From Escherichia coli (GTDB taxonomy: Bacteria > Pseudomonadota > Gammaproteobacteria > Enterobacterales > Enterobacteriaceae), in NCBI RefSeq assembly GCF_022846255.1, contig NZ_AP025682.1: DNA of 64,000 nt. The stretch is one strand, 5' to 3'. The first letter of the stretch is position 1, and each line of letters begins with the position of its first letter. The notes beneath the pieces were generated by a model. It was not told where the DNA came from. It made no database searches and saw nothing but the letters and a program-made list of their open reading frames with translations. Both the position numbers and the translations under genes were made by a program. Positions 59,321-60,034 of this stretch are shown one piece after another.

Positions 59321-59859
59321 TCACTTATTTTATTTACTTAGCGCAATGTCGTTCACTTAAGCAGAGCGGCATTGCTGCTAACTGGATAACGGTTTTTTGA
59401 TATCTTCACCTCCCTCGGCCTTGATGATCGGGGGCTATGAGCAGCACTTCCAAATTTCCACGCAGATGCCCCAACCTCTTCGGACTTGTTCCTGTCGAAT
59501 CGGTATTCCCCAGTACTATCAGCGCTGTTGCGATGAACTCAAAGGTAAAATCAGAGCTTATTTCCTGGGGGACAATCTCTTATGTTTCTCTGCTGCTTGA
59601 TTGCATATTCTTACGATCAGGTAGCAAGATGTGACCGCGAGGCTCAGCATTTCAGGCAGTATTGTACCTACTTAGCAGAAAAATGTTCGGCAAAAGGTTG
59701 CGCTGAAGGAGATGGCATTAATAAGATCACAGAAATCGAGCAAATCATTAAGTAGTGCATAAGAAAACGTCCCCCTGTTATGGAAGTCGTCATAGCGCTG
59801 CAAATTAAGGAGCGGCATTGGTTATTACCGCATTTTTTATTGCGCACCATATATCAACA

Positions 59860-60034
59860 ATAAGAATGAATTAACTAATATTAATTTGTTTTATTTATAT
59901 TTATACGGAAAATAAATAAACGTTATTCATATATAAATGATATGTCAGAAATTTAATTTAATATTTACTAGCACTTTATGCAGATTTTAAATAAAATCCA
60001 ATTTAATTTAGTTTAAATCAGGGATGGTTTTTAT
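59860..60034 (+). promoter_or_regulatory. extremely AT-rich upstream region of the inverse-autotransporter gene (likely nucleoid-protein-silenced promoter)
   Basis: About 175 bp with long A/T tracts (ATTTAATTTAATATTTACTAGC...) directly 5' of the sinH-like ATG; typical of horizontally acquired adhesin promoters. Confidence 0.4.

What the first reader, a model, noticed from the sequence alone, without database searches (positions are those of the whole stretch)
59321..60034. 714-bp non-coding, strongly AT-rich spacer between der and the adhesin gene; no yfgJ-like ORF evident
In K-12 a small zinc-ribbon gene (yfgJ) follows der; here the interval has no ORF of 60 aa or more with coding character, and its last ~175 bp are extremely AT-rich. 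This suggests the insertion boundary and a silenced (H-NS-type) promoter for the adhesin operon.
Basis: inference. Interest (0 to 1): 0.45.

Follow-up and report, generated by a model that had tools for sequence, protein, structure and literature searches.

The report
Dead IS4 scar plus AT-rich promoter
The 714-bp gap between der and the adhesin gene sinH is not an empty spacer: two thirds of it is the wreck of an IS4-family insertion sequence and the rest is a very AT-rich promoter region, which is an ordinary edge of horizontally acquired DNA.

Summary
The interval has no yfgJ and no conserved gene. Its last ~175 bp (16.6% GC) are the most AT-rich stretch of the whole 64-kb window.

The interval has three parts.
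1. 59321-59342 is the der 3' flank.
2. 59343-59821 is an internally deleted IS4-family element on the minus strand. It is related to K-12 insZ, keeps both terminal repeats and has lost its DDE catalytic core.
3. 59822-60034 is the AT-rich leader and promoter region of sinH.

yfgJ is not lost. A public contig identical to the last 14 kb of the window continues as sinH'-sinI'-ratA'-yfgJ and then a second, ExPEC-type sinH-sinI-ratA module. The spacer is therefore the left edge of an extra adhesin module lying between der and yfgJ.

The IS end forms a strong hairpin followed by a U-run that probably terminates der. Identity to related strains falls from about 99% to about 70% inside the IS scar, which indicates a recombination breakpoint there.

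H-NS silencing is plausible from base composition only. No motif match and no published data support it. This is an ordinary finding of low interest.

The parts
57848..59320 (+). der (ribosome biogenesis GTPase), the core-genome gene to the left; context only
   Evidence: The ORF ends at 59320. It is 99.9% identical to der of E. coli B2 strains, where der is annotated as 1473 nt.
59321..59342 (.). 22-bp der 3' flank. Only the first ~8-16 nt can be aligned to the der-yfgJ spacer of K-12 and strain 95-3322, so homology to the ancestral spacer ends here.
   Evidence: Alignment A3; sequences.
59327..59398 (+). Long imperfect RNA hairpin followed by U6 (59393-59398). Predicted intrinsic terminator for der, built mostly from the IS terminal repeat pairing with sub-terminal IS sequence.
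   Evidence: Fold of 59315-59405: -28.7 kcal/mol, z = -4.9, 0 of 200 shuffles fold as well. The sequence is conserved in all four alleles. Weaker versions exist at the same end of the intact IS and of K-12 insZ. Function is inferred.
59343..59821 (-). Internally deleted, frameshifted IS4-family insertion sequence (insZ-like). About 950 bp is missing, including the entire DDE domain.
   Evidence: blastn gives 73-75% identity to both ends of an intact 1432-bp IS (L006 3001-4432) and of K-12 insZ. tblastn with the intact 445-aa transposase gives E = 6e-19. That transposase matches PF13006 + PF01609 and NF033592.
59343..59361 (.). Terminal inverted repeat at the transposase 3' end (GCAATGTCGTTCACTTAAG)
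   Evidence: Matches the terminal repeat of the intact IS, GCAATGCCGTTCACTTAAG.
59356..59620 (-). Transposase C-terminal remnant, spread over three reading frames: residues 420-445, 374-416 and 356-370
   Evidence: tblastn segments with 69%, 70% and 60% identity.
59653..59761 (-). Transposase N-terminal remnant (residues 1-37) with a frameshift directly after the start codon
   Evidence: tblastn segments for residues 3-12 and 15-37, E = 9e-6; reading of the sequence.
59804..59821 (.). Second terminal inverted repeat (ATTAAGGAGCGGCATTGG), degenerate. A 23-nt sub-terminal repeat unit is missing relative to the intact IS.
   Evidence: Comparison with L006 4393-4432. Strain A25 has lost this end through a 58-bp deletion.
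59582..59755 (+). 57-aa ORF predicted by gene callers in sister contigs; judged spurious
   Evidence: Called in L007-L014 without any Pfam hit. It spans the IS deletion junction, antisense to the transposase remnants. It is frameshifted in E2348/69. Versus A25 it shows 11 non-synonymous and 1 synonymous change, pN/pS 2.55. No family hit.
59822..60034 (+). AT-rich sinH' upstream region (promoter and leader); core 59846-60020 at 16.6% GC. Low GC continues into the first ~200 bp of sinH'.
   Evidence: 34 TpA steps in 212.
59968..59997 (+). Best candidate sigma-70 promoter: CTAGCA-N18-TAAAAT. It lies in the best-conserved block of the AT-rich region. Prediction only; the predicted start is near 60004.
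   Evidence: My own hexamer scan. The equivalent block in E2348/69 reads TTGCAA-N17-TAAACT (alignment). The stricter consensus scan found no promoter-like site.
60035..62230 (+). sinH' (intimin-like inverse autotransporter, 731 aa), the gene served by the AT-rich region; AGGGA Shine-Dalgarno at 60021-60025
   Evidence: The exact protein is WP_137501863.1, named 'intimin-like inverse autotransporter SinH [Escherichia coli]'. It matches PF11924 IAT_beta. It is 94% identical to E2348/69 SinH and 71% to ExPEC-type SinH.

Best explanation
The 714-bp interval is a composite junction at the left edge of a horizontally acquired sinH'-sinI'-ratA' adhesin module that sits between der and yfgJ.

Anatomy (shown):
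- 22 bp of der 3' flank.
- A 479-bp corpse of an IS4-family insertion sequence related to K-12 insZ. It lies antisense to der and sinH. It keeps both terminal inverted repeats and short N- and C-terminal transposase fragments, but has lost about 950 bp including the whole DDE catalytic domain, so it can neither transpose by itself nor encode a protein.
- 213 bp at about 20% GC that carry the ribosome-binding site of sinH'.

Function (inferred):
- The hairpin plus U-run formed by the IS end terminates der transcription. This insulates sinH' from read-through.
- sinH' is transcribed from a weak promoter in the conserved block near 59968-59997.
- The ~400-bp AT-rich tract (59850-60250) is a likely binding platform for H-NS/StpA that keeps the module poorly expressed under laboratory conditions.
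- The IS scar has also served as a stretch of shared homology within which allelic exchange of the adhesin module took place.
For: IS identity:
- A distant blastn search finds insZ-type IS4 elements in 2458 of 5426 E. coli genomes, including K-12 insZ between tdk and adhE and an intact copy on a plasmid.
- tblastn with the intact transposase hits residues 356-445 and 3-37 in the spacer, E = 6e-19 and 9e-6.
- The terminal repeats match.
- PGAP annotates an 'IS4 family transposase' pseudogene at the homologous position.

Module context:
- L008 is 100% identical to 13,966 bp of the window and continues with ratA' (772 aa), yfgJ (PF07191, E = 1e-28) and a second sinH-sinI-ratA set.
- In E2348/69 and A25, yfgJ also lies at the far end of the module, next to xseA.
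- In ordinary B2 strains the order is der-yfgJ-sinH.

AT-richness.

Terminator.

Mosaic identity: 99% to Z1323HEC0423 up to about 59550, and 67-77% from 59641 onward.

No gene or known RNA.
Against: - No clear target-site duplication flanks the remnant (TTACTTAGC versus TTATTACCG, 4 of 9), although the intact copy has a clean 9-bp duplication. The IS may therefore have been involved in a rearrangement rather than a simple insertion.
- The promoter scan with standard thresholds found no sigma-70-like site.
- There is no match within 2 mismatches to the H-NS high-affinity motif TCGATAAATT in the AT-rich tract.
- No experimental evidence for H-NS at any sinH was found.
- Terminator function is a fold prediction only.
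Confidence: 0.8

Rival explanations
1. One reading: a plain non-coding, AT-rich spacer left by an insertion that removed yfgJ, whose main content is an H-NS-silenced promoter.
For: There is no yfgJ in the interval. AT-richness at the sinH end is extreme. The downstream genes have lower GC than the core, 45-49% against 53%.
Against: 67% of the interval is an IS4-family remnant at 41-48% GC, not AT-rich spacer. yfgJ is intact further downstream in the same lineage. H-NS involvement is untested, and the high-affinity motif is absent.
Confidence: 0.15
2. The spacer encodes a functional small protein (the 57-aa ORF at 59582-59755 or one of the 60-67-aa ORFs) or a small RNA.
For: The 57-aa ORF is called by automatic gene finders in 7 of the 8 sister contigs listed. 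It stays open for 56-58 codons in the other three alleles. A GGGGGA lies about 10 nt upstream of its ATG.
Against: 11 of 12 substitutions versus A25 change the amino acid, pN/pS 2.55. E2348/69 has a frameshifted C-terminus. The ORF spans the IS deletion junction antisense to the transposase fragments, so it cannot predate the deletion. It has no Pfam or NCBIfam match. The other ORFs are broken by indels in the related alleles. Rfam gives nothing above threshold; the only weak hit is ctRNA_p42d at 21 bits against a 50-bit cut-off.
Confidence: 0.03
3. The 479-bp element is an active non-autonomous miniature element (MITE) mobilised in trans by full-length insZ-like IS copies.
For: Both terminal inverted repeats are retained, and full-length relatives exist in E. 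coli.
Against: There is one copy per genome, and it is found only next to sinH' (in six of the eight genomes directly after der, in the four E2348/69-type genomes after an island inserted at the der 3' end), in just 8 of 5426 complete genomes. There is a single copy in the window. No target-site duplication is seen. The right repeat is degenerate, and deleted in A25. Two exact-pattern scans of 100,044 species-representative genomes found no copy.
Confidence: 0.03

Closest known systems
K-12 insZ (IS4-family transposase pseudogene between tdk and adhE)
   Same: Same IS lineage: 73-75% nucleotide identity at both ends. It is also a decayed, frameshifted, internally shortened copy fixed at one chromosomal site.
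   Different: It is at a different locus. insZ keeps about 900 bp of the transposase gene, whereas the window copy keeps only about 370 bp of coding remnant and lacks the entire DDE domain.
der-sinH spacer of EPEC E2348/69, Z1323HEC0423 and A25, with the PGAP-annotated 'IS4 family transposase' pseudogene
   Same: Homologous spacer with the same IS deletion junction, the same order (IS scar, AT-rich tract, sinH'), and a SinH that is 94-95% identical.
   Different: Overall only 82-88% identical. The window is about 99% identical up to ~59550 and 67-77% beyond. E2348/69 additionally has a 7-kb integrase island between der and the spacer, and lacks the second sinH module.
Salmonella CS54 island / E. 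coli ExPEC sinH ('ila') locus between der and xseA
   Same: Same chromosomal site and same gene set (inverse autotransporter SinH, SinI, RatA-like Ig-repeat protein). Published work describes it as horizontally acquired, with sinH-sinI co-transcribed (PMC12525524, PMC4943183, PMC6714894, PMC9937491). Its upstream region is also AT-rich, 29% GC.
   Different: In the common ExPEC layout yfgJ lies directly after der and no IS scar is present. The window's SinH' is only about 71% identical to that SinH. The AT-rich regions do not align convincingly.
H-NS-repressed inverse-autotransporter promoters, e.g. fdeC (Easton et al. 2014, as cited in PMC6714894)
   Same: An AT-rich upstream region of a horizontally acquired intimin-like adhesin gene in E. 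coli.
   Different: H-NS control of fdeC was shown experimentally. For this sinH' nothing has been tested, and the published high-affinity motif is absent.

Membership tests
IS4-family insertion sequence | Transposase homologous to IS4-family transposases (Nterm_IS4 + DDE_Tnp_1; NF033592) | tested here: met
   Fragments corresponding to residues 3-37 and 356-445 of an intact IS4-family transposase, E = 6e-19. That protein matches PF13006, PF01609 and NF033592.
IS4-family insertion sequence | Intact DDE catalytic domain (needed for a functional, autonomous IS) | tested here: not met
   Residues ~38-355 (the DDE domain maps to 129-356) have no counterpart. The remaining pieces lie in three frames with stop codons. 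It is a remnant, not a functional member.
IS4-family insertion sequence | Terminal inverted repeats | tested here: met
   59343-59361 and 59804-59821 match the repeats of the intact element. The right one is degenerate.
IS4-family insertion sequence | Direct target-site duplication (9 bp in the intact relative) | tested here: not met
   The flanks TTACTTAGC and TTATTACCG match at 4 of 9 positions. The intact copy in L006 has a perfect GCGAAGCGG duplication.
MITE (mobile miniature element) | Multiple dispersed copies with target-site duplications | tested here: not met
   One place per genome, always this locus. One copy in the window. No hits in species-representative genomes.
yfgJ (double zinc ribbon, PF07191) | ORF with a Zn_ribbon_6 domain in the interval after der | tested here: not met
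   No such ORF or Pfam hit in 59321-60034. An intact one is present at L008 15743-15967, beyond the window end.
H-NS (xenogeneic silencer) target promoter | AT content well above the genome average over at least 100 bp | tested here: met
   16.6% GC over 175 bp. GC is 12-36% in ten of the twelve 50-bp bins from 59750 to about 60250. The window mean is 52.4%.
H-NS (xenogeneic silencer) target promoter | High-affinity nucleation motif tCGATAAATT (Lang et al. 2007, PMC2094087) | tested here: not met
   No match with 2 or fewer mismatches in 59321-60034, against 74 such matches across the 64 kb.
H-NS (xenogeneic silencer) target promoter | H-NS occupancy (ChIP) and derepression in an hns mutant | not testable with these tools
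   No data for sinH found in the searchable literature.
Rho-independent terminator | Stable GC-containing hairpin immediately followed by a U-run | tested here: met
   Hairpin 59327-59393, -28.7 kcal/mol, z = -4.9, followed by U6 at 59393-59398. In vivo termination was not tested.
sinH/CS54-type adhesin island | Inverse autotransporter SinH followed by SinI and a RatA-like BIg21/InvE_AD protein, between der and xseA | tested here: met
   xseA itself lies outside the window and was seen only in relatives.

The most novel reading that the evidence does not exclude
The dead IS is more than junk. Its terminal hairpin has been co-opted as the der terminator and insulator. Its conserved left half acts as a portable homology 'handle' at which divergent sinH' adhesin modules are swapped between E. 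coli lineages, seen as the drop in identity from about 99% to about 70% inside the scar. In this lineage that has produced two tandem, 71%-identical SinH secretion modules, each behind its own AT-rich, separately silenced promoter.
Probability: 0.25. Interest if true: 0.35.

Novelty: new member of a known kind. Interest (0 to 1): 0.15.

Why it matters
The practical gain is a correct reading of this locus.
- The gap after der should be annotated as an IS4-family pseudogene or scar plus the sinH' promoter region, not as empty spacer.
- The 57-aa ORF that gene callers predict there should be dropped.
- yfgJ should not be scored as lost.

For people working on SinH as an ExPEC vaccine antigen, one point is of modest interest. 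Some E. coli lineages carry a second SinH paralogue, 71% identical, directly upstream of the usual one and behind its own AT-rich, probably silenced promoter.

Nothing here challenges current understanding.

Tried and rejected
- Rfam: an E-value scan of 59000-60400 and a gathering-threshold scan of the whole window found no RNA family in the spacer.
- Pfam and NCBIfam on seven translated pieces and ORFs of the spacer: no real hit. The IS was recognised only by DNA and tblastn comparison with full-length copies.
- Consensus promoter scan: 0 sites. My looser scan gives only weak candidates.
- H-NS motif search: negative.
- Aligning the AT-rich tract to the yfgJ-sinH intergenic region of ordinary B2 strains: not convincingly homologous.
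- Looking for a target-site duplication: none convincing.
- Two exact-pattern scans of 100,044 species-representative genomes for the IS scar: 0 hits each. No evidence of the scar outside E. coli was obtained, but exact matching would miss diverged copies.
- Literature searches for H-NS at sinH or the CS54 island: nothing. Kingsley et al. 2003 is not held, and Lucchini et al. 2006 has no supplements held.
- DNA curvature prediction: not done, because I had no verified parameter set.

Full report
**Observation.** The der ORF ends with TAG at 59318-59320, and the next long ORF (731 aa) starts with ATG at 60035. The interval is therefore 714 bp as reported. Its GC is 37.5% overall and 17.1% over 59860-60034, against 52.4% for the window. 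The stretch 59846-60020 (16.6% GC) is the most AT-rich 175-bp stretch in the whole 64 kb. The next lowest is 28%, at the ryfA/IS128 small-RNA intergenic region. The mean is 52.4% and the sd 5.4%. No zinc-ribbon ORF is present. ORFs of 67, 65, 60 and 57 aa do exist. They match no Pfam or NCBIfam family and are disrupted by indels in the related alleles.

**Source and neighbours.**
- der is 99.9% identical to der of E. coli B2 strains.
- The 24 kb upstream are at most 98.7% identical to any of 5426 complete RefSeq E. coli genomes.
- The gene after the spacer is an exact match to WP_137501863.1, 'intimin-like inverse autotransporter SinH [Escherichia coli]'. A SinI-like gene and the start of a RatA-like gene follow it.
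- This SinH is 94-95% identical to the SinH of EPEC E2348/69 and strain A25. It is only about 71% identical to the SinH of ordinary ExPEC/B2 strains.

**What the spacer is.** Megablast finds the spacer in only 8 of 5426 complete genomes, at 82-88% identity. In six of the eight it carries a PGAP annotation 'IS4 family transposase; frameshifted; incomplete' on the minus strand. A more sensitive blastn connects spacer positions 20-495 to IS4-family elements in 2458 genomes. These include the K-12 insZ pseudogene between tdk and adhE (74% identity in two pieces) and an intact 445-aa transposase gene on a plasmid. That intact protein carries Nterm_IS4 (PF13006) and DDE_Tnp_1 (PF01609) and matches NF033592.

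A tblastn search of it against the spacer gave these matches:

| Transposase residues | Window coordinates | Note |
|---|---|---|
| 420-445, 374-416, 356-370 | 59356-59620 | three different minus-strand frames; combined E = 6e-19 |
| 15-37, 3-12 | 59653-59755 | E = 9e-6 |

Residues ~38-355, which include the whole DDE domain, are gone. The intact element is 1432 bp, with terminal repeats GCAATGCCG...CGGCATTGC and a perfect 9-bp target duplication. The window keeps both ends, at 59343-59361 and 59804-59821. The remnant therefore spans 59343-59821, or 479 bp. No convincing target duplication flanks it. It is single-copy and found only at this locus, and two exact-pattern scans of species-representative genomes found nothing. 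It is a fixed scar, not a mobile miniature element.

**Three-part anatomy.**
1. 59321-59342 is the der 3' flank. Only the first 8-16 nt align with the der-yfgJ spacers of K-12 and strain 95-3322.
2. 59343-59821 is the dead IS.
3. 59822-60034 is the AT-rich sinH' upstream region. It ends in the conserved AATCAGGGATGGTTTTTATATG, which holds the Shine-Dalgarno sequence and the start codon.

**Where yfgJ is.** The exact SinH protein is encoded on 24 or more public contigs. One of them, L008, is 100% identical to window 50035-64000 and extends 8.2 kb further. It continues with:
- sinI';
- a 772-aa BIg21/InvE_AD (RatA-like) gene;
- a hairpin terminator;
- an intact yfgJ (74 aa, PF07191, E = 1e-28);
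- a second AT-rich intergenic region (29% GC);
- a second sinH (724 aa, 90% identical to the B2-type SinH), sinI, and a 2693-aa ratA.

E2348/69 and A25 have der-(scar)-sinH'-sinI'-ratA'-yfgJ-xseA. Ordinary B2 strains have der-yfgJ-sinH-sinI-ratA. In the window's lineage, therefore, yfgJ is displaced rather than lost. It lies at the equivalent of about 65.8 kb, outside the window. The spacer is the left edge of an extra adhesin module inserted between der and yfgJ.

**Mosaic structure.** Along alignment A1, the window is 100% identical to Z1323HEC0423 in the der 3' end. It is 99% identical over 59343-59550 and 94% over 59551-59640. Beyond 59641 identity drops to 67-77%. Strain A25 is uniformly 82-92% identical and lacks 58 bp, including the right repeat. 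This pattern indicates that homologous recombination replaced the adhesin module with a divergent allele, with one crossover inside the IS scar. This is an inference.

**Candidate functions.**
- The transcript leaving der can fold the IS end into a long hairpin (59327-59393, -28.7 kcal/mol, z = -4.9, none of 200 shuffles as stable), directly followed by U6. The pairing is conserved in all four alleles. It is present in weaker form at the same end of the intact IS and of insZ. I infer that it terminates der.
- The strict promoter scan found nothing. The best candidate is CTAGCA-N18-TAAAAT at 59968-59997. It lies in the best-conserved block of the AT-rich tract, and the equivalent block in E2348/69 reads TTGCAA-N17-TAAACT.
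- H-NS binding is plausible. GC is 12-36% in most 50-bp bins from about 59850 to 60250, and 34 of 212 dinucleotide steps are TpA. Against it, no H-NS high-affinity motif is present, and no experimental data for any sinH were found. The published precedent is another inverse autotransporter, FdeC, as cited in PMC6714894.

**Small-gene hypothesis.** The 57-aa ORF at 59582-59755 is predicted in seven of the eight sister contigs listed. However:
- it spans the IS deletion junction antisense to the transposase fragments;
- it is frameshifted in E2348/69;
- it shows 11 non-synonymous against 1 synonymous difference versus A25.

I judge it spurious.

**Verdict.** The finding is real but ordinary: a decayed IS4-family element plus the AT-rich promoter region of a horizontally acquired adhesin module. 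It missed the IS, and its implication that yfgJ had been lost does not hold. H-NS silencing remains an untested, composition-based inference.

Noticed in passing
L008 10001-22196 (window 60035 onward and its continuation beyond 64000): This lineage carries two tandem sinH-sinI-ratA modules separated by yfgJ. The first is E2348/69-type (SinH 731 aa). The second is ExPEC-type (SinH 724 aa) and is 71% identical to the first. In some sister contigs (L007, L011, L012, L014) the second sinH is split into 156- and 560-aa ORFs, so it is probably a pseudogene there.
   Followed up: partly
L001 ~5980-6000 and L016 (E. coli E2348/69, NC_011601.1 2863834-2871313): In E2348/69 an island of about 7.2 kb lies between der and the IS scar. 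It begins with a tyrosine recombinase directly after der, and it is followed by a duplicated copy of the last ~21 nt of der (CATATTAAGAAAAGTAAGTAA). The der 3' end therefore appears to serve as an attachment site for an integrative element.
   Followed up: partly
L001 12328-12345 (E2348/69, just after the ratA' stop codon): An 11-nt match to the der 3' end (AAGTAAGTAGT) lies at the right end of the sinH' module in E2348/69. It could be a vestigial att repeat from an ancestral integrase-mediated delivery of the module. It is not present at the equivalent place in the window's lineage (L007 15612-15640).
   Followed up: no
yfgJ alleles: L003 6575-6790, L001 12444-12659, L007 15738-15962, L015 5600-5815: yfgJ is highly variable in its N-terminal half and nearly invariant in its C-terminal half (ALCPDCHQPLQVLKACGAVDYFCQ.GHGLISKKR) across the four layouts. 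In L007 the sequence switches to the B2-type yfgJ-sinH intergenic region right at the yfgJ 3' end, which suggests a recombination junction there.
   Followed up: no
window 41108-41860: This is the second most AT-rich stretch of the window (41587-41761, 28% GC). It lies in the ryfA / IS128 small-RNA region (Rfam RF00126 at 41108-41412 and RF00125 at 41548-41724, both on the minus strand). It is flanked by a ~60-bp direct repeat at about 41530-41590 and 41795-41855, and each repeat copy ends in a terminator hairpin.
   Followed up: partly
window 4359-4506, 33743-33852, 54518-54609: Known RNAs were found at the expected places: GlmY, the iscRS stability element and SroE. Nothing unusual was seen.
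   Followed up: no
window 59804-59818 (minus strand): The right terminal repeat of the IS reads ATGCCGCTCCTTAAT (M-P-L-L-N) on the minus strand. This closely resembles the true transposase start ATGCCACTACTTAAT (MPLLN...) about 45 nt further in. It is probably a repeated sub-terminal transposase-binding sequence and not a second start codon.
   Followed up: no
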